64,000 bases of DNA from Carcharhinus amblyrhynchos (GCA_965287045.1 OZ336878.1:69316001-69380000); one strand, 5' to 3'. Shown: positions 5,990-50,979, counted from the stretch's first letter. Numbers and translations are program-made. The notes: generated by a model from the letters alone, not told the origin.

Positions 5990-6810
5990 AATAGTGTAGA
6001 ACCTCGGGCAAAAACAAGTTGGTGGAATGGGTGAATAACGCTCAATGTAGAGAAATGTGAAGTGATTCATTTTGCTAGGAAGTATGTTGGGGAGACATTA
6101 TGAAATAAATTGTACAACTCTAATGTGGGTGCACGAACTGAGGGACTTGGGTGTATATGTGCATAAATCTTTGAAGATGGCAGGATGAATTAAGAAAGCA
6201 GATAATAAAGCAGAATATCTTGGACTTAATGAATTGGGACATAGAGTACAAGAGCATGGAGGTTATGTTGAATTTGTATAAGTTATGCATTCAACCTCTG
6301 TATTGCATCTGGCTCTAGGCACTTCACTTTAGAAAGGATGTGATGCATTAGAGAGGGTGTAGAAAAAGTTCACAAGAATGGTTCCAGTGAAGAGGAACTT
6401 CAGTTATGGAGATGGATCGGAGACATTAGGAATGTTTCCCTCGAGTAAAGAAAGCTGAGAGGCAATTTGATAAAAGTATTCAAAATCAAGAGGTGTCTGG
6501 ACAGAGTAGATGGGGAGAAACTGTTCCCACTCACGAAAGAATCAAGAAGACACAGGTTTAAAGTAAATAATAAAAGAAACAAAGTGAAAGGAGAAACCTT
6601 TTTACACAGTGAGTGGTTAGGGTTTGCAATGTATTGACTGGCACTGTAGTGGAGGCAGTTTCAACTGAAGCAATCAAAAAGGGATTTGACAGTTATCTGC
6701 AAAAGGAAGAATATGCAATGTTATGGATGCTAGATGAGTTGCTCATTCGGAGTGCCAATGGAGGCACAATGGGACAAATGAACTTCTGCACCATATCGAT
6801 TCTGTGCTTT
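5990..6810 (+). mobile_element. Degenerate CR1 LINE 3' fragment
   Basis: NVEKCEVIHF and ALERVxKKFTRMVP remnants plus CR1 tail. Confidence 0.75.
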
Positions 6811-8023
6811 TGTGGGGACTTTGCAGGGTCAACTGGACAATGTATCCTTGTTTCTGGTACTTGAGTCAATGCCAGATTGTCTGTCCAATCTTCTGATTTT
6901 TCAGATGCAGTTTGGTACAATCAGGTGCCCTGAGAGGCCACTTCAGTGGGCAGTGGGGCAGCTACTGTGAGGTTGGAGTCACACGTAGGGCAGACCAAAT
7001 TATCTTCTCTGAAGGACGTTAATGAACCTTGTGGATTGTCATGACAATCTGGTGGCGTCGAAGGGTCTAGTTTTTATTTCTGATTTATTTATTAATTGAA
7101 TTTAAATTCTCCCATTGCCTTGGTGGAATTTGAACTGGTATCTCCAGAGCATTTGTATTAAAATCCCAGAAGGGACCAATAACCTAATTAAAAAGATTTT
7201 TCCAGTGACTGATGGAAATCATTGAAGTACAGGATTTTTGCTTTAAGATTTCTAATGTAACAAGCAAACTACAATCAATATATATCAAACATTACTTAAC
7301 AGGCAACTAAGACAACAAACTGAAAACATACTTTTGCATTAACTAACCTAATCCTGTAACCTCTTTTGCAGTGCACTGTTTTTGGAAATGTAGCATTACG
7401 AAAGCAGGTCCAAAGTTATTCCCAGCTTTCCAACAACTGAATTCTCCCTGTTGAAACTTCCAGAGTTGTCTGAAAACCATTCCACTCAGCCCAAGCCTTC
7501 CAAATCTGACTCTGATTGGCATGGCTCATTCCTGTGACTTCCTGTTCCTTAAATCTCCAAACGTTCTGTCAGTTTGGTCCTCTTTTTGACTAGAACACAA
7601 CCCTCATCATTCTGCTTAGTTTTTTACACATAACAATCATCTGCTGTTCACAGCAACAGTTGTTTTGCTTCTTCACACTGCAGTAATTCCATTGTCGCTC
7701 TCGCTCATGTGCTCTCTCTCCCCTGCTCTCGTCTCATAAAACAAGTGTCCCTGGTGTGAGGACTGTTGTCACTTGATATTCCAACAGGTTTCTATTGGAG
7801 TTTCTTTCCATTTGGCAGCCAGATCACGTGGACCTAGCTCGCAACAGAGATCTTTAGTACGGCCATATCCTTATCCAGAACTTTCCATTCACCTCAAATT
7901 CAAGGAGACATTTTAAAGCATAACTTGTCTTGTAAAGTTCAGCATTGAAAAAATTATTTTGGGCCTCTGCAACACTAGTGCAGAATCATTGCCACCAAAC
8001 TACCATTCTCTATTCAACCTTTC

Positions 8024-18654: not shown

Positions 18655-19070
18655 GTAGGAAATAGGCTGGCTCCTTGAGTGAGCTAAGGGATTGTGGAAT
18701 TGGCTCAAAGGAAATTGATTCATCATCAGCGCACAACATCGATGTAATGTTTTTCTTAGCACAGTTAATCAGCACTTGTTAAATCAAGGGCTCTGCTCGT
18801 GCCAGGTATTAGCATGATGAGAATCAGAGTTTTAGTCTAGCACAAACCAATACTGTTGCTTGTAAGGTACCTGAAGCTTTTGTACAAATAAGTCCCAGTT
18901 TGTCTTTGAATTCTGGGGTCTCAACACAATTTCAAGTGCCTTTTTAATAACAGTTTTATGCCAGGGTCTGTGAAGTAAAGTTAGGCTGATTAATCATGAA
19001 GTCTGCAATTTGACTTGACCAGTAAGAAGTCTCACAACACCAGGTTAAAGTCCAACAGGTTTATTTGGTA

Positions 19071-19107
19071 TCACAAGCTTTCAAAGCAATGCTTCTTCAT
19101 CAGGTGA
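19071..19107 (-). ncRNA. Minimal hammerhead ribozyme motif (antisense arm)
   Basis: Reverse complement TCAC-CTGATGA-A-GAAGC(ATT)GCTTT-GAAA-GC-TT-GTGA. Confidence 0.62.
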
Positions 19108-19123
19108 TGAACGTAATCCCAAC

Positions 19124-19160
19124 TCACCTGATGAAGGAGCAGTGCTCTGAAAGCTCGTGA
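19124..19160 (+). ncRNA. Minimal type I hammerhead ribozyme motif (sense to PRRC2C pre-mRNA)
   Basis: TCAC-CTGATGA-A-GGAGC(AGT)GCTCT-GAAA-GC-TC-GTGA: intact CUGANGA and GAAA boxes, helix I TCAC/GTGA, 5-bp helix II, palindromic AGCT at helix III, UC cleavage site. Confidence 0.72.
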
Positions 19161-19516
19161 TACTAAATAAACCTGTTGGACTTTAACCTGGTGCTGTGAG
19201 ATTTCTTACTATGCTCGCCCCAGTCCAATGCTGGCATCTCTACATCTTGATTTGACCAATAAGGGTGCCTAATCTATGAAATGGAAAACTTGTACTTCTA
19301 TAAGAGGTCCATTTTTGAGGTTGGGCTGGGTAAATGATGCAACGTTTGTATGGCTGTGCTGCACCAGACATTGAACACAAGCAATTGGGAATATTCTATA
19401 TCTGTTAGTTCAAATGCAATTCTAAATGGTGCTGTCTGCTACTACTAAAATGCTTTTAAGGCATTGTAACTGTCTATACATTGGAATCTTTTGTTGAATT
19501 AATTTTGTTTTCTTAG

Positions 19517-22138: not shown

Positions 22139-22236
22139 GTGGGTTTTGTGGCATGACTTCTTCGAAGATGAGTGTTGGTAAGAGTTACTTTGCTTGTTTC
22201 AAAGACCATTGATCCTTACAAGTCTGGTTCACAGAC

Positions 22237-23297
22237 TTGGTATCAATGGGTGCTATTCTGTTTGGCGGTTGGTGAGTAGTGGAGTGCTGCAGGGATCGGT
22301 GCTGGGGCCTCAGCTATTTACCATTTATATAGATGATCTGGAGGAGGGGGCTGAGTGTAGGGTAACAAAATTTGCTGATGACACAAAGATGAGTGGAAAA
22401 GCAAATTGTGTGGAGGGTGTGGAAAGTCTGCAGAGGGATCTGGATAGGCTGAGCGAGTGGGCGAGGACCTGGCAGATGAAGTATAATGTTAGCAAGTGTG
22501 AGGTTATCCACTTTGGCAGGAATAATAGTAGGAGGGATTACTATTTAAAGGGCGAAAAGCTGCAGCATGCTACGGTGCAAAGGGACCTGGGGGTCCTTGT
22601 GCACGAGTCGCAAAAACCCAGTCTGCAGGTGCAGCAGGTGATCAAGAAGGTGAATGGAATGCTGGCCTTTATAGTGAGGGGGATGGAATATAAAAGCAGG
22701 GAGGTCTTGCTGCAACTGTATAGGGTACTGGTGAGGCCGCAGCTGGAGTACTGTATGCAGTTTTGGTCGCCGCACTTGCGCAAGGATATTTTGGCCTTGG
22801 AGGGAGTGCAGAGGAGGTTCACTAGGCTGATAGCGGAGATGAGGGGGTTGGCCTATGAAGAGAGACTAAATAGACTGGGTCTGTACTCGTTGGAGCTTAG
22901 AAGGATGAGGGGGGATCTTATAGAGACGTATAAGATAATGAAAGGGTTGGATAGGGTAGAGGTAGAGAGATTCTTCCTGCTTAGAAAGGATAGCAGGACA
23001 AGAGGGCACAGCCTCAAGATGGGGGGGGGGGCCGGGGAGGGGCGCAGTTTAGAACAGAGTTGAGGAGGAACTTCTTCACTCAAGGGGTGGTGAATCTCTG
23101 GAATTCTCTGCGCATTGGGAGGCTACCTCGCTCAATATATTTAAGTCATGGGTAGATAGGTTTTTGACAGACAAGGGAATTAAGGGTTATGGGGAGAAAG
23201 CGGGAAAGTGGAACTTCAGATCAGCCATGATCTTATTGAATGGCGGGGCAGGCTCAAAGGGTTAGATGGCCTACTCCTGCTCCTGTTTCTTATGTTC
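22237..23297 (+). mobile_element. Young 5'-truncated CR1 LINE
   Basis: ORF 22194..23063: GVLQGSVLGPQLFTIYIDDL...TKFADDTK...RPQLEYCMQFWSP; ends ttcttatgttc. Confidence 0.95.
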
Positions 23298-26983: not shown

Positions 26984-27210
26984 GCACAGTAAATAGTCTC
27001 AACACCAGTTTATAGTCCAACAGGCTTATTTGGTAGCATAAGTTTTTGGAGCGTTGCCCCTTTATCAGGTGAGTGAAGAGTTCAGTTCACAAAACCAAAT
27101 GATAGCACAAGCTCCGAAAGCTCATGCTACCAAATAAACTGTTGGACTTTAACCTGGTGTTGTGAGATACTAACTATGCCAACTCAGTCCAACAGCTGCA
27201 ACACCTCATC
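26984..27210. mobile_element. Second, more decayed copy of the fold-back Penelope-type element
   Basis: Homologous to 19021-19246 (ctcaacaccagtttatagtccaacagg / ctgttggactttaacctggtgttgtgaga); flanked by attgagcttaa / attgagctaaa. Confidence 0.78.
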
Positions 27211-38465: not shown

Positions 38466-40008
38466 CTGAAAGAAATGGCAGAGGTGATAGTGGATGCCTT
38501 AGGAATTATTTATCAAAATTCGCTGGACTCTGGGGAAGTGCCGGAAGATTGGAAAACAGCTAATGTTACGCCGCTGTTAAAAACAGTAGCAGACAAAAGG
38601 CAGGGAATTATAGGCTGGTTAGTTTAACGTCTGTAGTTGGAAAAATGCTAGAATCCGTCATCAAAGAAGAAATAGCGAGGCACCTAGAAAAAGAATGGTT
38701 TGATCAAGCAGATGCAGCACGGATTCGTTAAGGGGAAGTCGTGTTTGAAGAATTTATTGGATTTCTGTGAGGATGTGACTAGTGCGGTAGACAGAGGGGA
38801 ACCGGTGGATGTGGTGTTTTTAGATTCCCAAAAGGCATTTGATAAGGTGCCTCAAAAGGTTGCTACAGAAGGTTAGGGTGCACGGAGTTGGGGTAAGGTG
38901 TCAGCGTGGATGGAGGATTGGCAGTCTAATAGGAAGCAGAGAGTTGGTATCAATGGGTGGTGTTCTGATTGGCGATTGGCGACTAGTGGAGTGCCGCAGG
39001 GATTGGTGCTGGGGCCTCACCTGTTCACCATTTATATAGATGATCTGGAGGAGGGGGCTGAGTGTAGGGTGACGAAATTTGCTGATGACACGAAGATGAG
39101 TGGAAAGGCAAATTGCGTGGAGGCTGTGGAAAGTCTGCAGAGAGATTTGGATAGGCTGAGCGAGTGGGCGAGGACCAGGCAGATGGAGTATAATGTTAGC
39201 AAGTGTGAGGTTATCCAGTTTGGCAGGAATAATAGTAGGAGGGATTACTATTTAAAAGGCAAAATGTTGCAGCACGCTACAGTGCAGAGGGACCTGGGGG
39301 TCCTTGTGCACAAGTCGCAAAAACCCAGTCTGCAGGTGCAGCAGGTGATCAAGAAGGCGAATGGGATGCTGGCCTTTATAGCGAGGGGGATAGAATATAA
39401 AAGCAAGGGAGGTCTTGCTGCAACAGTACAGGGTACTGGTGAGGCCGTAGCTGGAGTACTGTGTGCAGTTTTGGTCGCTGCACTTGGGAAAGGATGTGTT
39501 GGCCTTGGAGGGAGTGCAGAGGAGGTCCACTAGGCTGATACCGGAAATGAGGGGGTTGGACAATGAAGAGAGACTAAATAGACTGGGTCTGTACTCGTTG
39601 GAGTTTAGAAAGATGAGGGGGGATCTTATAGAGACGTATAAGATAATGAAGGGGATGGATAGGGTAGAGATAGAGATTCTTCCCGCTTAGAAAGGAATAC
39701 AGGACTAGAGGAGACAGCCTCAAGATAAGGGGGGGTGTAGTTTAGATCAGAGTTGAGGAGAAACTTCTTCACTCAAAGAATGGTGAATCTCTGGAATTCT
39801 CTGCCCATTGAAGTGGTGGAGGCTACCTCGCTAAATATATTTAAGTCACCGGTAGACAGGTTTTTGATAGACGGGAATTAAGGGTTATGGAGAGAAAGCG
39901 GGAAAGTGGAACTGATCCACTTCAGGTCAGCCATGATCTTATTGAATGGCAGGGCAGGCTTGAAGGGCTAGATGGCCTGCTTCTGCTCCTGTTCCTTATG
40001 TTCTTATG
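38466..40008 (+). mobile_element. Young 5'-truncated CR1 LINE (RT domain, frameshifted)
   Basis: VPEDWKTANVTPL, QHGFVKGKSC, GVPQGLVLGPHLFTIYIDDL, FADDTK; highly similar to 22237-23297. Confidence 0.95.
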
Positions 40009-41394
40009 TGGTTGACTCTTAACTGCCCTATGAACAAGGGCAACTAGAGATGGGCAATAAATGCTAGTCAGCCAGCGACACCCACGGATGAATTTTTAGA
40101 AATGTAGGTTTTAGTCTTGTGGCTGATTTTTTTTTCAATAAGCAAAGTTGTGTAACTCTATATAATTCTGGTTTATTTGTCCAGAGGTAGTTTCCCCTAA
40201 ATGATTGGGAAATGATTCCTCTAAATGATTGAATGGACTTCTAAACTATAGTAAATAACACAATCCTTAAAGTCTCATTACTGTAACCTAATTTTATTTT
40301 TAAATGGAAGCTAATTTATGCTGTAGCTCAGGTATGTTCAGACTTCCAATTGTAAACCACATGTTCCTCAGCTTCACAGAAGGAAGCCATTCAGTTCGTG
40401 TCTGCACTGCCTCTCCAAATGAGCGTTATGACTTAGTGCCATTCTTCTGCTTTATCCTGTACCCTAGTACATCTCTTCCATTCAGATAATCATCTAATGC
40501 CCTCTTGAATGCCTCTGTTGAACCAGCTTCCACCACACTTCTACGTGGTGCATTACTGATCTGAACCACTTCTTAAAAATTTATTTTATTGGATGTGAGC
40601 ATCGCTGGCTAGGCCAGTATTTACTACCCATCCCAGTTGCGCTGGGATGGTGGTAAGTTGCCACCTCGAACTACTACAGTCCCTGTGGTGTGGCTATACC
40701 CACGGTGCTGTTAGGGAGGAAGTTCTGAGATTGCAGGTAGTGGTAGTGGTGTGCTGTGCTGTGTGTCTACCATCCTTGCCCTTCCTTGGTGGTAGAGTTT
40801 CAGGTTTGGAAAGTGCCCACAAGTGAGCCTTGATGAATTGCTGCAATGTATCTTACACAGTGGCGGCAGTGTGCACCATCTGTATCAGTGGTAGAGGGAG
40901 TGAATGTTTAAGTTGGCTACTGGAGTGCCTTTCAAACAGGCTATCATATCTTGAATTGTGTTAAGTTTCTTGTGTTGTTGAAGCTGCAGTCATCCATGCA
41001 AGCGGAGCATTCCATCACACTCCTGACTTGTGCCTTATCGATGATGGTGAGGCTTTGGGGTAGTAGAAATGCATTGCTTGCTGCAGAATTTCGATCTCTC
41101 TTCTAACCGCAGTTTTTATGTGGTTGATCCTAAGTTTCTGGTCAATGGTAACCCAGGCCATTGCTGAAATACTTCGGATGTGGCCCAAAAAAGATTGGAT
41201 ATCTTGATTCTTAACTAAAATAATACAAGCTGAATTTCTAAAGTGGGATTTGTTAAAAGTGGGATTTTAACAAAAGGGTTGAATAGTCTAAATGATATTG
41301 GTGTATTTGGTGTAGCCAGTGTGATTTCAAATGTATGGCATGGTCACGTGAATAACCTTAAAAAATCTGAATATGTGCAAATTTTAACTTTTAG

Positions 41395-41487
41395 GAATCC
41401 ATGACTGATTATACAGTGCCTTCTTCATCATTGTCAGATTCTGTGTCTTCTGGCAGTAGCAAAATAGAGGACTCCTTGGCCAGCAAT
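41395..41487 (+). CDS. PRRC2C: PRRC2C coding exon
   Basis: ttttag|GAATCC...AGCAAT|gtaagt; ESMTDYTVPSSSLSDSV. Confidence 0.9.
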
Positions 41488-42050: not shown

Positions 42051-42152
42051 GTGCCCCTGCCCCACACCCTTCCCATCCCCAGGAGGGAGACTCTACAACA
42101 GAGCTCCAGCCTGACACCAGTCTCTCCCGCCACTGTCGACTTCACCCTCAAG
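42051..42152 (+). CDS. PRRC2C: PRRC2C coding exon
   Basis: tttcag|GTGCCC...CTCAAG|gtatgt; VPLPHTLPIPRRETLQQSSSLTPVSPATVDFTLK. Confidence 0.94.
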
Positions 42153-45100
42153 GTATGTACTTGATCCCTCTAGGGGTATTTTGATGTGCAGGGAGAGAGC
42201 TGGGTGTGATGCAATTTATACATCGTTTTACCCTACATCTTACCTTCCATCACCTCTCTACCTGAATATCCCATGTCCATTAAACTTGTCATGGTCTGTA
42301 ATAGTGGCTACTCCTTAATATATTTACTTATCTGGTGTATGCTTTATGGCTGAAGAACAGAAATATAAATGGCAATCACACTTTATCCAAAATAAAAATA
42401 CTTTGTACCTGCAGTGCCACGGGTGCTCCAAGCTGCGATTTCAATTTAAACAGTTTAAATTGCTATTGCAAGTGTTGTACAGTCTTCTATGAAGTGTCTT
42501 GTAAGTTTGCTTCTGTGTTGTCAACAATTGCCTAATAAGGTGCACTGCTTGCTGAACACCACTGTCAGGCAGCTGTATTTGTTGTCTTCTATGAATTATT
42601 TTTCTCAAGAACGGCAGATGACATTACATAGCTTGGCTATCGGTACCCCAGCAGTTGGTGAGAACTAATTATCTTGATTTCAAACTGGATAATGGCTTTG
42701 GATCCTACAAATTTCCAGTATGATTAGAAGCAGGGTATGAGAATGAGGTGAAATGTAAAAGGAAGTAATATATACATAATTCAAGTTATTATTTTTCACT
42801 AATTGAACAAGAAATTAATGATGGAAAATATTGAAATGCTAAGTTCTTTCAGCACAATCTCCAAGACTTCCGAATCCACCCCAAAGCGTGCTCTCCAGAG
42901 CAGTGCATACTATTCCCAGCTGGGGCCTAAGATTTATCTTGAATTCCCTGTTTTTATACTCAGTGTGCCTGTTCAGAAAGCAAAGTATCCCTTGTTTTCT
43001 TAACTGCCTTATCAGCTTGCACGTTTACTTCAAGCATTGTGAATATGTACTCCAGATCCTTAAAAATTCTGCACTTTGGATTGTGCTGCCTCTGCCATGT
43101 TTCTCCCAAAGTGCACCATTTCATACTTACGTACCTTAAATCACATCTGCCCATTTCACCAGTCTGCTGATATCCTCACCATTTGCTATGTTCAGAATGG
43201 TAGCCCCTCTTCTCAAGTCCATAACCAGAAAAGCAATGGTCCTAATGTTGATGTAGTAGCCCTATAACACTGCAGGATTATTGGTGCTGTGGATTTCTTC
43301 GTATTTACCTTGGTGTAGAATCTGTGAAAATGTATCAGTTGGAAGAATGGAGAATTTGGAGCAGGGCTTTAGGGCTGCACAAGTGCAGAGAGGAGGGTTA
43401 ATGCCATTGCCTGATTTAAACTTAAAACTGAGAATATTCAGTTTGAAACTTTGGGGGGTTGGGAGCCAGTAAGAAAATAGGTGATGGGTATGTCTGAGTT
43501 GGTGGGGAATTGAATATAAGCAATTAGTGAGTTGAAGTTTGGGGAGGTAACAGATGCGAGACAAGCCAAGAGAACATTCATATCGTCAAGATTGAAGGTG
43601 ACAGATGAATGTTTCAGCAGTATTTGGGCTGAGGTGGAAGTGAGTATCAATACAAAAGTGTAAGTAGGTGATCTTTGACGGAAAGAATATGGCATCAGAA
43701 ACTCAGCTTTGTATCAAATGGAACACCATGATTACAAACAGTTTGACTTAATCTGATTTAGTTTTCAGATGCAGAATTTGGCTTCAGTCGTCTTGTTGAG
43801 TGAGAGGAAATTGCAGCTCATCCAAAACAGTATATCAGGCAAACAATCTAGCAACAGAGGCAGTGGAGTAGTTGAAAGAAATAATAGCAATGTAGATCTG
43901 GGTGTCATCAGCATACGTGTGGAAGCTGAACAGTGTTTTCAGACGAGCACTGCGGATGTGACAATAGGTACTTGGGAAACCCTAGAAGTACTGTTATGCA
44001 AATGATGGAGAAATGGCAGAAAATGTTCTCTGTCCTGTTGGAGGGTTAGAATGGAACCATGGAAGAATAGTCTCTGACCTGGACAAAGTGCTTATTGAAA
44101 GCCTCTCCAGTGGGTGATCACGTCAAATACTAGAAAGGGTGAGGCGAAATAACTTATTGACAGGGCGACAATGAGTATTATTTGTGACTTTGGGTTGTTT
44201 TGGTGCTGATTGGAGAGAGGTGAACAGAGTTTTTGAATTATAGGCAGGGATTAGGGAAAGACGGTTAATTATTTTGAAAAGTGACAGCACACTGATGATA
44301 GGGCAATCGTTTTCGAGAGTGAAGGGAACATTAATTGTTTTTGAAAGTGCAAGGGCTAGTAATTTTGTGGGAATCATTTTGTGTTTAGAAAGGGAAATTG
44401 GATAGTCAGTTCAGTAGGGAAAATGTTGAGTCAGGAGATGAGCCTGGGTAGGGGAGAGGACCATGCTATTGCAATGAATGTGAAATGATTTATTCTGAAC
44501 CTGTGTTCAATCTAATTTACTATTCAATAATGTTGCATATCCATTTATTCTCCTACTTTTAAAATGACTGCCTTTTGAGGACATTAGCGAAAGTTGGTGG
44601 TCCTGATTCTATCCTGTGCTTTTCTAATTTGACTGAAAAGCATTTCGCTTGCTTATTCTATGGTAGGTTGATAGTTGTGTTACCCAGCTGTAGAATCTTT
44701 CAAGGACATGTGTGCAGGCCAAACAGGATAGAGATGGCAGTGTCATATCCCTGAACGCAATTAGTAAACCAGTTGGTTTTTACAACAGTTTGGCAACTAT
44801 TATGATTGTTTCTTTTCTGACAACAACCTGCACATTGCCAGGTTTGAGTTGAGTTTCGCAATTTGTCATGCTGGGATTGGAGCGCTCAAAGTTTAGATTG
44901 TTAATCCCAATTCCATAAGCATTATGTGACCCTTGAGCACTTTGATGCTGGGTATAGCATACCGTGATTGTGGCATGACAAATGAAGGTGAGACAGCAAT
45001 GAGGGGGTAAATAAAGATGAGAGCATACAATAAAGTTAACAATATAATACATCATAAAACTTTAGCAATGATTCATGTTCTGCCACCTTGAATTTGTGTC

Positions 45101-45188
45101 TTCGCTGACTTGGTACTGTAGAGGAAACTGCAGTCCAAAGACTGAAATGTTAATCATTCCTGTACATTCCTCCTCCTTTGCTTAACAT

Positions 45189-46054
45189 CCATCTTTAAAT
45201 GAATAAGCCTTCACCCAAGTGAGAAACATGATCTTTTATATTTCCTTGCTGCATTTAATCTTTCCCAGCAGGCAGTGAAATTTATATATTCACACTGCGA
45301 ATATTTCATTTCCTTTTGATATTGTTCCTGTTTTGTACCAGGAACAGGTTTTGAAGCTTTACCTGTTTGATATTATTCATAAATTATGCAGTTAATAATT
45401 TAGTATTTGCAGTTGCACGCTTTCTTGGAATCCCCTGATAGCCAAGGAAGTAAAAGGGCTCAACATTTGGCTCTAATTTCAGTAAGGTTAAAGTCATCCA
45501 AAGTTATTTTACTAAACGATGATGCGTAGCGACTCATTCTGAAAGTACAAATGAATAATGGGTGTGGACAAAACTAGGATGCTCTGTGATGTGCTGCACT
45601 ACCTGCCAGCACTTGCTGCAGCTTGTGTATTTAATAACAGGGGGAACCTATTAGCCTTTGTGAGGAGAAAAATAATACAGCATAGCCAAATCTATGATTT
45701 TTGTGGACATTCACTGTTTAATTGCAGTTTTTGGCACACAACCCTCATTACAATTCCTTCAATCAAATTGAGAGATCCATCAGTGCCAGCAATTAGATTT
45801 AATGACTGTAAAACCGCCACCATGCCTTTGCAACATTGGTGCACGTGAAGTCATCGTGTTGACATCTTGCATGGCATGGCTTTTTTTGCTGAACTAATTC
45901 TAGGCTTCCAGCGTGCTAACCAAGAATGCCTGGAATGTTGGATAATCCTAAAAAAGGCGAAATGTCCTTGGACTGTTGTGCCCTGCTTGCAAACTTTGTA
46001 GCAACCAAGGTGTGCTTTGCATTGGCTCAGGGCAGATGGTGAGGCGGTTGGATT
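45189..46054. repeat. Intronic duplicated segment, copy A
   Basis: Collinear, same orientation and roughly 80% identical by eye to 48637-49544. Confidence 0.9.
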
Positions 46055-46803
46055 CCTTGTGTGCAAAGCCAACCCCGTCAATGCAAAACTAAGCAACTGT
46101 GGGTGTGTGTGGTATGTATGTGTGTGTTGGAATGAGTGATCTAGTTTTATAGAGATTGAATTTCATTCGGAGAATGGAAAGCTCTTGTTGCAAAGGTAGG
46201 TGACATTTTATCTGATGTAATTTTCTAGATCACGTTTTAGAAAATGCAACAAGTTTTATTTTGGACGTTTTGAGAGAAAGTTTTAGGATGTTTAAGCCTT
46301 TTACTTATCAAAATGTTTTTAAAACACTGGTGATTTAACTTGCAATGTTTAGAGCTTTGGCATGTGTAATTGATTTAATGGGATGCAAGAATCTCAACAT
46401 TTTGAAAATATCAATGAGTTTGATGTAAATTATAGCAATGCAAATTTATTTTGTCCCTCAGGGTTTGCTCAATTATCCACTGTTTCATGTTACTGTATGA
46501 TACTTAGGAAATGAAGTTGATGTGAGAGAGAAATTTTGTTCAAGCTTTTGAATGTTGTAGAAGCTATTTAGTATACGAGATATGTTATTGTTATTTTGCA
46601 AATAATACCTGTATATCATTCCCTGATTTACCTCAAGCTTAGATCATTTTTTGAAGTCTTTTTGTATTATTTTTGAATTGTGAACATTGTGACTTGGGAT
46701 GCTAAATGTTAAAGCAAGATTGTGATGTTAAATTGAAACTCCCTAAAAAAGAAGAAAGTCTAGTTTGAACAAATGGCAAAAAAAAATGCTTCTTCTTTTT
46801 AAG

Positions 46804-46990
46804 ATGGAATGTGCACGAAAGGCATGGGAGAATTCACCAACGGTAGGTGAGAAAAGCTCTCCAGTGACCTCGACAGCATCATCAATCAGCAGCGGTAATG
46901 GAGGTAGCAGTAGCACTTACAGTTCCTTCTCCAGTGCATCCATGCCTCCTATTCCAGTAGCCTCAGTCACACCCACTACATCCTTGTCAG
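46804..46990 (+). CDS. PRRC2C: PRRC2C coding exon
   Basis: ttttaag|ATGGAA...TCAG|gtaact; MECARKAWENSP (conserved ARKAWENSP motif). Confidence 0.95.
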
Positions 46991-47077
46991 GTAACTACAA
47001 AGTAGTAAATCTGTTGTGCGTTGTGTGAATGAAGATTTATCTGTGAAACGGCAAATTTAAGTACTCAACCTTAGCGT

Positions 47078-48470
47078 AGAAACATACATAGAAACTAGAA
47101 GGAGGAATAGGTCATTTGTCCTTTTGAGTCTGCTCCACAATTCATTTTGGTCATGGCTGATCATCAAATTCATATACTAATCCCGCCTTTCCTCCATATC
47201 CCCTGATCCCTTCAGCCCCAAGAGATGTATTTAATTCCTTCTTGAAAACACAATGTTTTTGCCTTACTACTTTCTGTGATGTGAATTCCACAGATTCACC
47301 ATTCTCCGGGTGAAAAAATTTCTTCTCACCTCAAATTGTGACCCATAATTCTTGACTCCCCCACCATCGGAAACGTTCTTTCTGAATCTACTCTGTATAA
47401 TCCTGTTAGAATTTTCTAAGCTTCTATGAGATTTCCCCTTGCTCATCTAAACTCCATAATAGAATATGATCCTAACTTAGTCTCTCCTCTTGATAGTTCT
47501 ACCATTCCAGGGATCAGCCTGGTAAACTTTCACTGCACTCCCTCTATAGCAAAAATATCCTTCCTCATACAAAGACACCAAAACTGCCCAAGTGTAGCCT
47601 CACCAATGCCATATACATTTGCAGTAAAACATCCCTGTTATACTCACATCCTCTCGCTGTGAAGGCCAACATACTGTTTGCGTTCTTTACTGCCTGCTGT
47701 ATCTGCATGTTTACTTTCAGTGGCTGATGCATGAGGACACAAGGTCCCGTTGAATTCCCAACTCTCTCAATTTACACCCATTCAAACAATAATTTGCCGC
47801 CTTATTTTTGCTACCAAAGTGGATAACCTCACATTTATCTACTTTATACTGCATCTGCCACACATATGCCCACTCACTCAGCCTGTCCAAATCTGCATCC
47901 TCCTCATAGTTCACTCTCCCACCCAATTTTATACCATCTGCAAATTTAGCGATAATATGTTTAGTTCCCTCATCCAAATCATTAATATATAATGTGAACA
48001 GTTAAGGTCCTAGCACAATCCCATTAGTCACTGTCTGCCAATCAGAAAAAGACTTATTTATTCCAACTGTTTGCTAATCTGCTATGAGACCTTGTCAAAA
48101 GCTTTTGAAAGTTTAAATAAACCACATCCACCAGATCTCCCTGGTCAACTCAACTTGTTACATCCTCAAAGAATTCCAGTAGACTTGTCAAGTCCTTTCA
48201 TAAATCCATGCTGACCGTATCTGATTATACCACTGCTTTTCAAATGCTGTGCAGTGAAATCCTTGATAATAGACTGGCAATTTCCCTACTACTGACATTC
48301 AGCTCACTGGTCGAGAGTAGCCTGTTTTCTCTCTATCTCTCTTTTTGAATCGCAGGCTTACATTAGCTACCTTCCAATCTCTAGAAATCATCCTGAGTTC
48401 AAAGACTTTGGAAAATGGCCACCAATTGATCAGCTATTTCAAGGGCCACTCTGGGATGAAGATTATCAGG
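47078..48470 (-). mobile_element. CR1 LINE 3' fragment
   Basis: ORF 47717..47977(-) IAKFADGIKLGG...VDKCEVIHFG; tail tagaaacatacatagaaac at 47078. Confidence 0.88.
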
Positions 48471-48636
48471 CCCAATAAATCCAGTAAATTTGCTACTGGC
48501 TTTAGGAGTTGGCAATACTATTAAACCCAGTGTAAAAGGAGGTCTGCTTTGCGCAGATGGTTCCCCAGCAGTTACATTTTCAAATCATTTACATGTCCTG
48601 AATGAAAAAGTAAAACATCAGCAACTGCAAAATGTC

Positions 48637-49544
48637 CCATATTTAAATGAATATTCCTTCACCTAAATGAGAAGCATGATCTTTTACATTTTTATAGCTG
48701 CATTTCATCTTTCCCAGCAGGTACTGAAATTTATATGTCTGCAACGTGAATGTTCCCTTTTGATACCTTTCATGTTTTGTACCAGGAACAAGTTTTGAAG
48801 CTTTATCCATTCAATATTCTTACATCATGGAGTTAATTTAGTATTTGCAGCTGTGTGCTTTTTCTGTAATCTCATGATAGCCAAGGAAGTAAAATGGCAC
48901 CTCATTTGGCTGCAATTCCTCTAGTTTCAGGAAGGATAAAGTCAACCAAAGTTATTTTACTGTATGGTGATTTATGACTCATTCTGTAAGTACAAATGGG
49001 TAATAGGTATGGACAAAACCAGGATGTCCTGTTCTGTGCTCCACCACCAACCAGCTTGCCAGCACTTGGTGCAGCTTATGTATTTAATAACAGGGAGCAC
49101 CTGTTAGCCTTTGTGAGGAGAAAAATAATAAAGCATAGCCAAATCTATGTGGATCTTCACTGTTTCATTTGCAGCTGTTGGCACACAGCCCTTATTGTAA
49201 TTCTTTGATATTAAATCTTTTAATCAAATTGAGACCCATCAGTTCCAAGCAATTAGAGTTATTGATTGCAAAACCTGCTACCATGCTTTTCCAACATTGG
49301 TGAAATTGAACAGTCATTGTGTCTGCATGGCATGGATTTTTTTTGCTGAACTAATTCTAGGCTTTGAGTGCTAACCAAGAATGCCAGGAATGTTGGATAA
49401 TTCTGAAAAAAGTGAAATGTCATTTGACTGTTGTGCCCCAATTGCAAATTTTGCCTCCCTCATCAAAGACTGAGTCTACTGCAGTAATGTACCAACCAAG
49501 ATGTGCTTTGCATGGGCTCTGACCAGATGAAGAGATGTTGGATT
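48637..49544. repeat. Intronic duplicated segment, copy B
   Basis: Shared blocks with copy A, e.g. ttagcctttgtgaggagaaaaataata and tttttttgctgaactaattctaggct. Confidence 0.9.
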
Positions 49545-49810
49545 TGGGTCTGTTTAAAATGGGGGAAAAAGTCAGAAATATTTTCACGTTAATTGTTAGT
49601 TTTTTTGGTTTGAAAATGCCTACAAGCTAGTTGTTGCAGGTAAACTTGGACGAAGCAAATTTCTGATCAGATTTACATTTTACGTATTTTCATTTATGCT
49701 CCATCTTAGCACTGGCTGGCGTAAATATAGATAATTGCTAAATGTGCATTCAAATTGATTAGATTGCGATTGTATAAGCTAAGCAATATAGTTTTTCTTG
49801 TTCTCAACAG

Positions 49811-50014
49811 GTACAGGAACATATACTACCTCCTCGTTGAGTACAAAAGCAACCACCACTTCCGACCCACCCAATATTTGTAAAGTGAAGCCTCAGCAGC
49901 TGCAGAACAGTAACATAGCCCCTGCAAGCCACTTCTCGCAGCTAGGTTGTGTAACCTCACTCATACCCCCTCAACAGCAAAGTCCACAGGTGTATGTCTC
50001 CCAGTCTGCAGCAG
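49811..50014 (+). CDS. PRRC2C: PRRC2C coding exon
   Basis: caacag|GTACAG...GCAG|gtatgc; DPPNICKVKPQQLQ. Confidence 0.94.
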
Positions 50015-50979
50015 GTATGCAGTGAAACATCTGGTCAGCAGATTTGAAGTTATCAAAGATTGCTTGGTTCCCAAGTATTTTTTAACTGCCCATGAATTTC
50101 ACTTGAGCAATTTTATAGTAGCTGCCCTAATGATGTAGTGTTTGCCAGAAGAAACAGCATATTTCAAAATAGGTACAGTGACTAACCTATTTACAGTGTT
50201 CTAACCTGTTTGGAATTGTACCCAAAAAAATCAAGGGTCCTTGTAGCTTGTTGAAAATTCATGTTCTTTGTGTTTATTTACATTCTTGTGATAGGAATAC
50301 TAATTTAAGGAACACTGACATGGTCTCCTAGCTTTGAAATGCAGTTTTTCCTTCCACTGTGCATATTTGTTGCATATGAAGTTGGGTCTGAGCAATTTAA
50401 TCTGAATGCATCAGGCCTTAGTTTATTTCAGTTAAAACAACAACTTATCTAGGAATTTTACAACAATGAAGATTAATAAAGTAGAGACCAGTATGAGCAG
50501 AGCTGAAGGAGAATTAATTGTAAAGCTAATATCAATATATGTAAAGAATGCCTAAAATTTCTTCAACTGAAAGGAAATGCTGTTTGTTTAACAGACGTAA
50601 AAGCTTTTACATAACAAAATTGTCTTTTGTTTTATCTGGTATTTAGTTTGCTTTATGAAAACTTGTTTAAACGATGCAGTTTATATTGTATTGCACTTCA
50701 TGAAAAGTGCTTTTGGGAAAGTTGAAGCTTAGTGCACCCATGTGCTAGCCATTCTCGAGTCAGCATACAGAGGTTCTTTTTAAGGTCGTCTTCAAATTTG
50801 CATCTGTGAGCAATATGCTAGTTTTCACTAAAAATTAATGTCTTGACTGTTCTAGACTTTATTTTGCTTTTAACACTAGTTCAATTTGTCTTATTTTGAA
50901 AATGCCAGCAATGATTGAATTTTTTTATGGTTGAATACAGTAAGTGTGAAGAATAAAACATTTTTGATTTCATTCATAG

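What the first reader, a model, noticed from the sequence alone, without database searches (positions are those of the whole stretch)
45189..49544. ~870-bp unexplained segment duplicated into the two introns flanking the ARKAWENSP exon
Seen: 45189-46054 and 48637-49544 are collinear direct repeats, roughly 80% identical by eye with several indels, one on each side of exon 46804-46990. They contain no exon copy, and I see no TIR, LTR, poly-A tail or RT remnant; they match no other repeat in the window. Copy A has several 8-bp stems (45323-45346, 45421-45449, 45898-45935) that are partly broken in copy B. Known: cis-duplication into a neighbouring intron is a common way intronic snoRNAs spread, and PRRC2 paralogues are snoRNA hosts (PRRC2A/SNORA38, PRRC2B/SNORD62). 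Inference: an unannotated intronic ncRNA or regulatory module, or else an unrecognised old transposon.
Basis: partly seen in the sequence, partly recalled or inferred. Interest (0 to 1): 0.72.

Follow-up and report, generated by a model that had tools for sequence, protein, structure and literature searches.

The report
Old local duplication in PRRC2C introns
An 870-base piece of otherwise unique intron DNA occurs twice, once on each side of one exon of a shark-like PRRC2C gene; it is not a transposon or a recognisable snoRNA and is most likely an old, inert copy-and-paste accident, with only weak hints of a hidden RNA or splicing signal.

Summary
The duplication is real: 45189-46054 and 48637-49544 are collinear, 84.4% identical over 834 ungapped columns with 19 indels, with sharp ends and no flank or exon homology. 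No third copy was found in the genome, and two related organisms carry both copies without a crowd of look-alike contigs, so a transposon family is unlikely. Three other local pairs turned up in 0.72 Mb of this genome, so such pairs are not rare. Best reading: an old one-off local copy, mostly neutral (0.55). Weak hints remain: RNA-type contigs from two studies start at the same base (45514), one stops at a fork that needs copy B, and both copies keep an RBFOX/QKI-type motif cluster in a shared predicted hairpin below an exon that is skipped in two RNA-type runs. Conservation in distant sharks, the decisive test, could not be run.

The parts
45189..46054 (+). Copy A of the duplicated segment (866 bp), in the intron 42153-46803, ending 749 nt before the exon
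48637..49544 (+). Copy B (908 bp), in the intron 46991-49810, ending 266 nt before the next exon; only 1 CpG against 11 in A
46804..46990 (+). PRRC2C-like exon MECARKAWENSP (187 nt) between the copies; not duplicated
   Evidence: gene name recalled
49811..50015 (+). Next exon, joined to 46990 in RNA-type contigs
42051..42152 (+). 102-nt in-frame exon above copy A, skipped in the laid contigs of two RNA-type runs; a matching exon-like frame exists in the paralog
41395..41487 (+). Upstream exon that X21 and X22 contigs join directly to 46804
47075..48450 (-). Decayed CR1-type LINE fragment between the exon and copy B (RT similarity 47329-48067, about 51% amino-acid identity); ends approximate; not part of the duplicated unit
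45240..45352 (+). Three hairpins predicted in copy A only (z -2.9; matching part of B z +0.5)
45514..45814 (.). Span of a 301-nt low-depth contig in RNA-type run X13; a contig of X22 starts at the same base. Candidate discrete RNA; not more structured than shuffles (z +1.3). Equivalent in B: 48962-49274
45651..45696 (+). Best-kept block; one mismatch to B here, inferred identical between the copies in organisms A, B and J from matching contig breaks
45785..45909 (+). Predicted hairpin shared by both copies (consensus z -3.6, no compensatory change inside the stem) holding TGCATG, GCATG and ACTAAT at 45868-45898 (B: 49324-49355)

Best explanation
The two segments are copies of one 870-base stretch of unique intron DNA, likely made by a single old local copying event and likely drifting apart without strong selection since. 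Inferred mechanism: during repair of a break, or a replication template switch, about 0.9 kb was copied from one intron into the neighbouring intron 2.6 kb away in the same orientation, without the exon. Both copies are transcribed as part of the pre-mRNA and removed with their introns (splicing across both introns is shown), so the protein is unaffected. Which copy is the donor is not known. The event is about seven times older than the split from organism B.
For: Shown: even divergence, window-variance P 0.17-0.69 and longest identical run 27 against 31 expected; indels of all lengths and no codon pattern; sharp ends with no flank homology (P 0.13-0.79 for four flank tests, 0.06 for one exon test; nhmmer blank); no third copy in two genome DNA searches, one pattern search or 724 kb of sampled genome; both copies lie on long contigs of organisms A and B, so not an assembly artefact; organism B differs at 20 of 938 bases in element-only contigs and 53 of 2069 in flank-dominated contigs, Fisher P 0.52; RNA-type contigs splice straight across both introns; 3 other local pairs of 250 bp or more without further hits in 724 kb.
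Against: Two separate regions give consensus-fold z of -3.5 or lower (3 of 38 windows) against 2 of 532 windows in 14 simulated neutral pairs. All 4 of 4 GCATG and QKI-type motifs of A are kept in B where 42% of 5-mers are. If the contig forks are read correctly, related species have a 44-46 nt identical run (P about 0.02). RNA-type contigs of two studies share a start (P about 0.006 if placed at random, post hoc). B is unusually CpG-poor. The related organisms are only 1-3% diverged, so the conservation test has little power, and even divergence also fits even constraint over a much longer time.
Confidence: 0.55

Rival explanations
1. The segment is a splicing-regulatory module: an RBFOX/QKI-type motif cluster set in a hairpin that would tune inclusion of the 102-nt exon at 42051-42152 or of the exons just below the copies; duplication gave a second module and both have been partly kept.
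For: TGCATG, GCATG and ACTAAT within 31 nt in both copies; the only such clusters in 247 kb of strand scanned; 45865-45950 is 91% identical; shared hairpin z -3.6; the exon above copy A is skipped in X21 and X22 contigs. That these motifs bind RBFOX and QKI is recalled.
Against: Cluster defined after seeing the data; the paralog's matching intron has no similar segment; the cluster is 3.7 kb from the skipped exon, and the longest exact complement between a copy and the tested regions is 12 nt; no compensatory change inside the stem; overall identity not patchy.
Confidence: 0.2
2. Each copy yields a discrete stable intronic RNA of about 300 nt (45514-45814 and 48962-49274) that is not a classical snoRNA.
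For: The X22 contig stops where DNA runs X5 and X7 fork between the copies, which by inference needs copy-B words in that run too. A box-C-like word lies 2 nt inside the start in both copies.
Against: Each is one contig at depth about 3 in runs chosen because they held copy A; X21 has its contig elsewhere (45270-45429); the span folds no better than shuffles (z +1.3 and -0.2); no box D at its end, no guide; identity 85.5%, the same as the rest; 301 nt could be a single fragment; DNA in the libraries is not excluded.
Confidence: 0.15
3. A classical C/D or H/ACA snoRNA was cis-duplicated with its flanks into the next intron.
For: The layout, copies in adjacent introns of one host, is the usual one for vertebrate snoRNA paralogs (PMC2653536 passages).
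Against: No Rfam match; the only CTGA kept in both copies follows a U-run; no antisense longer than 10 nt to this genome's 18S, 28S or U2 and none kept before a D-like box in both copies; candidate H/ACA region folds at z about 0 with different structures; no short conserved core.
Confidence: 0.05
4. Two independent insertions of an old, unrecognised transposon.
For: Sharp ends; the genome DNA search warns that it skips very common words.
Against: No third copy; at 80% likeness A and B attract single contigs in X5 and X7 while the adjacent LINE attracts thousands; no terminal repeats, target duplication, tail or ORF.
Confidence: 0.05

Closest known systems
Local non-tandem duplication or templated insertion; class 2 templated sequence insertions (PMC5110952, passages)
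   Same: Unique sequence copied without target-site duplication, poly-A tail or element ends; donor left intact.
   Different: In that paper the experimental inserts were 73-414 bp and came from distant sites, not nearby; here 870 bp, 2.6 kb away, same strand, shared by related organisms and old; no empty site available.
snoRNA cis-duplication into neighbouring introns (PMC2653536, passages); SNORD62A/B in PRRC2B (recalled)
   Same: Two copies in adjacent introns of one host gene of the PRRC2 family.
   Different: There a short core keeps boxes, guide and structure; here 870 bp diverge evenly, with no kept box D, guide or fold and no Rfam match.
Intronic RBFOX/QKI splicing-regulatory elements near cassette exons (recalled)
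   Same: TGCATG, GCATG and ACTAAT cluster in the intron below a skipped exon.
   Different: 3.7 kb from that exon, inside a duplicated block, no pairing partner near the exon found, conservation untested.

Membership tests
Box C/D snoRNA | Box C (RUGAUGA) 4-5 nt from the 5' end | tested here: inconclusive
   No perfect box; one-mismatch words at the same column in both copies (45516, 48964) and at 45519 in A.
Box C/D snoRNA | Box D (CUGA) near the 3' end, kept in both copies | tested here: not met
   3 CTGA in A, 5 in B; only 45889/49346 is shared and none lies at the 45814 end.
Box C/D snoRNA | 10-21 nt antisense guide before box D or D' | tested here: not met
   Against this genome's 18S, 28S and U2: longest match 10 nt, once per copy, unshared; 19 control windows give 0-5 such matches. 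U1, U4, U5, U6, U12 and 5.8S not tested.
Box H/ACA snoRNA | Hairpin, H box, hairpin, ACA, same fold in both copies | tested here: not met
   The one H/ACA-like pair examined (45666 and about 45739) folds at z 0.0 and +0.3 with different structures.
Box H/ACA snoRNA | Bipartite pseudouridylation pocket matching a target | not tested
   No shared hairpin to test.
Any Rfam family | Covariance-model score over the gathering cut-off | tested here: not met
   0 in the window; 3 matches at E 0.9-1.9, far below cut-off, in 44500-50000.
Transposable element family | Dispersed copies | tested here: not met
   A whole-genome profile search could not be run.
Transposable element family | Terminal repeats, target duplication, tail or element ORF | tested here: not met
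Class 2 templated insertion | No target duplication, no poly-A tail | tested here: met
   Junction sequences.
Class 2 templated insertion | Donor at a distant locus | tested here: not met
   The only homolog is 2.6 kb away.
Class 2 templated insertion | Empty site with microhomology or microdeletion | not testable with these tools
   Both deep runs laid hold both copies; no outgroup with an empty site.
Conserved non-coding or splicing-regulatory element | Conservation above neutral flanks in distant species | not testable with these tools
   Only relatives 1-3% diverged were reachable; P 0.52 and 1.0.
Conserved non-coding or splicing-regulatory element | Preferential retention of protein-binding motifs | tested here: inconclusive
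   4 of 4 kept against 42% background, but clustered and chosen post hoc.
Protein-coding exon or small ORF | Frame kept, third-position bias, homologs | tested here: not met
   96-aa ORF in A (45558-45848) is frameshifted in B and by a 2-nt deletion in X17 and X22; no homolog, no Pfam.

The most novel reading that the evidence does not exclude
Each of two neighbouring PRRC2C introns releases a stable RNA of about 300 nt, of no known family, with a fixed end at 45514 (48962 in B), next to a hairpin-embedded RBFOX/QKI module: a duplicated intronic RNA class in sharks that is not a snoRNA.
Probability: 0.12. Interest if true: 0.7.

Novelty: new member of a known kind. Interest (0 to 1): 0.25.

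Why it matters
If ordinary, it is a clean example of unique intron DNA copied across an exon into the next intron, the raw process by which intronic elements spread, and little more. If the weak hints hold, it would be an undescribed intronic RNA or distal splicing module in a translation-regulator gene, with two copies that serve as each other's comparison.

Tried and rejected
No listed holder was on record as RNA; this is no evidence on expression. 8 of 22 runs were laid; the other 14 and their small shares were not used. In the RNA-type runs laid, the other unique intron parts (and copy B in X13) showed no contig; lack of cover proves nothing and was not used as evidence. X18's contig ends at a PstI site (45616-45621), so it was read as restriction-based DNA data. 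SNORD62 family search of the genome: 0 matches but its control did not ring, uninformative. Metagenome scans with two patterns: 0. Pattern search in the genome: 6 non-self hits, none extends beyond about 60 nt, chance. Paralog on C25, 59.5 kb: no similarity to A or B, no snoRNA match, only an 18-nt tmRNA-arm hit at 14 bits. Tandem duplication with later loss of the exon copy: no remnant, not excluded. Capture at the LINE's 5' end: no target duplication enclosing B (read), not supported. Poison exons inside the copies: splice-like words exist but donors are not shared at usable sites and no joint enters either copy (the joint table was cut). Splice or poly-A forks as cause of the 45514 start: no fitting site by inspection. 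No tRNA. The A-only hairpins are within background: 8 of 307 intronic windows reach z -2.9, 4 of 16 copy-sized blocks reach -3.3. A whole-genome profile search and the large HMMER protein search were not run. Paper searches: PRRC2C + intronic + conserved noncoding 0; SNORD62 + PRRC2B 0; searches listed nothing on these introns; some searches were for methods and background. No supplements were read; snoRNA catalogues in supplements could bear on the host claims.

Full report
Observation. The two segments are real direct repeats. Self-BLAST finds them and nothing else touching them. The alignment has 834 ungapped columns at 84.4% identity, 77 transitions, 53 transversions, K2P 0.177 and 19 indels of 1-36 nt.

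Copy number. Two DNA searches of the genome, one with each copy, return only the two copies (the tool warns that common words are skipped). A 20-nt pattern with 2 mismatches gave 6 other places, none extending. No further hit occurs in 724 kb of sampled genome. In deep runs X5 and X7, laid at 80% likeness, both copies are covered by long single contigs with about 1% and 2-3% differences and summed depth 2-20, like their flanks, while the LINE fragment draws thousands of contigs (depth is not a copy number, the contrast is what counts). So the pair is not an assembly artefact, predates the split from these organisms, and is unlikely to be a transposon family.

Ends and origin. Homology starts and stops abruptly. 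Flanks show no similarity above shuffles or by nhmmer, and there is no remnant of a second exon. No terminal repeat, target duplication or tail was seen. This fits one copying event of about 0.9 kb into the next intron (inferred); a tandem duplication with clean later deletions is not excluded. Class 2 templated insertions share the junction features but came from distant donors in the experiments described (PMC5110952, passages). In the 724 kb sample 4 of 213 local pairs of 250 bp or more had no other hit, ours included; the other three are non-tandem, 66-93% alike, and may be low-copy elements, so one per about 240 kb is an upper estimate. K 0.177 against 2-3% for organism B makes the event about seven times older than that split; sharks mutate slowly (7e-10 per generation, PMC10587355, passages), so it is old, but no date can be given.

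Selection. Identity is even along the pair: variance and best-window tests give P 0.11 or more and the longest run is 27 against 31 expected. In organism B, element-only contigs differ at 20 of 938 bases and flank-dominated ones at 53 of 2069 (P 0.52); in organism A 5 of 459 against 10 of 901. These tests are weak because the relatives are close. Against neutrality: contig breaks in X5, X7 and X22 imply a 44-46 nt identical run in those organisms (P about 0.02; it could also be gene conversion), and B has 1 CpG against 11 in A, with TG facing 7 of the 11 in the alignment and CA none (post hoc).

RNA family tests. Rfam gives nothing. Only one CTGA is shared, after a U-run; one-mismatch C-box words occur. 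Antisense matches to this genome's own 18S, 28S and U2 reach 10 nt once per copy, unshared and no more than in controls. The one H/ACA-like arrangement examined folds at z about 0. The A-only hairpins (z -2.9) are matched by 8 of 307 background windows and lost in B. Consensus folding gives 3 of 38 windows at z -3.5 or lower, in two regions, against 2 of 532 in 14 simulated neutral pairs (14 of 16 planned pairs finished, 25 shuffles against 40). The sense-strand one, 45785-45909, is a long irregular hairpin with 4 one-sided changes and no compensatory change inside the stem. snoRNA paralogs in adjacent introns keep guide and structure (PMC2653536, passages); this pair does not. The PRRC2B-like paralog has no similar segment and no snoRNA match in 60 kb. 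The 96-aa ORF in A is not conserved and has no homolog.

RNA data. 22 runs from 13 studies hold copy-A words; 8 were laid. X13, X21 and X22 are RNA-type by their spliced exon contigs, which cross both introns without entering a copy. Each also has one contig at depth about 3 inside A: 45514-45814, 45270-45429 and 45514-45677. Two share a start where DNA run X5 goes on: a weak hint (P about 0.006 under random placement, post hoc). The X22 contig stops at the same place as the forks in X5 and X7, which by inference from 31-mer assembly (PMC12424806, passages) needs copy-B words in that run; its continuation to 45814 would be 148 nt, under the stated 150-nt limit. But the runs were selected for holding A, the contigs are at the detection floor, X21 points elsewhere, the span is unstructured, and DNA in the libraries is not excluded.

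Splicing hint. X21 and X22 join exon 41395-41487 directly to 46804, skipping the 102-nt exon 42051-42152. Both copies carry TGCATG, GCATG and ACTAAT within 31 nt, the only such clusters in 247 kb of strand, all kept, inside the shared hairpin. The motif meanings are recalled, the cluster was defined post hoc, and no pairing partner near the exon was found. PMC11469349 (passages) concerns a different PRRC2B exon; PMC10234308 (passages) does not mention PRRC2.

Verdict. Most likely an old, one-off local duplication of unique intron DNA that is spliced out and drifts (0.55); a duplicated splicing module (0.2) or a discrete 300-nt intronic RNA (0.15) remain open; classical snoRNA and transposon are each about 0.05. 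New member of a known kind; interest 0.25. Distant-species alignment and raw RNA reads would settle it.

Noticed in passing
window 42051-42152: 102-nt in-frame exon skipped in the laid contigs of RNA-type runs X21 and X22; a matching frame exists in the C25 paralog, so likely an old cassette exon.
   Followed up: partly
window 48637-49544: Copy B has 1 CpG in 908 bp (window median 9 per 870 bp); TG faces 7 of A's 11 CpGs and CA none, a one-strand pattern without explanation.
   Followed up: partly
window 49127-49132: AATAAA in copy B inside the best-kept block; A has AATACA. No sign of use was tested.
   Followed up: no
window 40530-40730: Strongly folding intronic windows, z -4.1 to -5.2, stronger than anything in copy A's sense strand; probably a palindromic repeat.
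   Followed up: no
window 19021-19210 and 26987-27192: Two palindromic elements of about 190 bp, 76% alike, MITE-like.
   Followed up: no
window 22230-23297 and 38937-40003: Two CR1-type LINE 3' fragments, 89% alike, with RT frames.
   Followed up: no
G000:C98:27138-75074 and G000:C45:1851201-1958921: U2 snRNA matches in two array types: a 407-bp period on C98 and a 10.5-kb period on C45.
   Followed up: no
G000:C3:60115937-60119709, C9:69202410-69208365, C25:5129125-5130134: Three other local non-tandem pairs without further hits in the sample.
   Followed up: partly
L008 about 6640-7120 (G000:C25, near 5145640-5146120): G-rich minisatellite in the PRRC2B-like paralog that reads as a GNGLGA-type repeat frame.
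   Followed up: no
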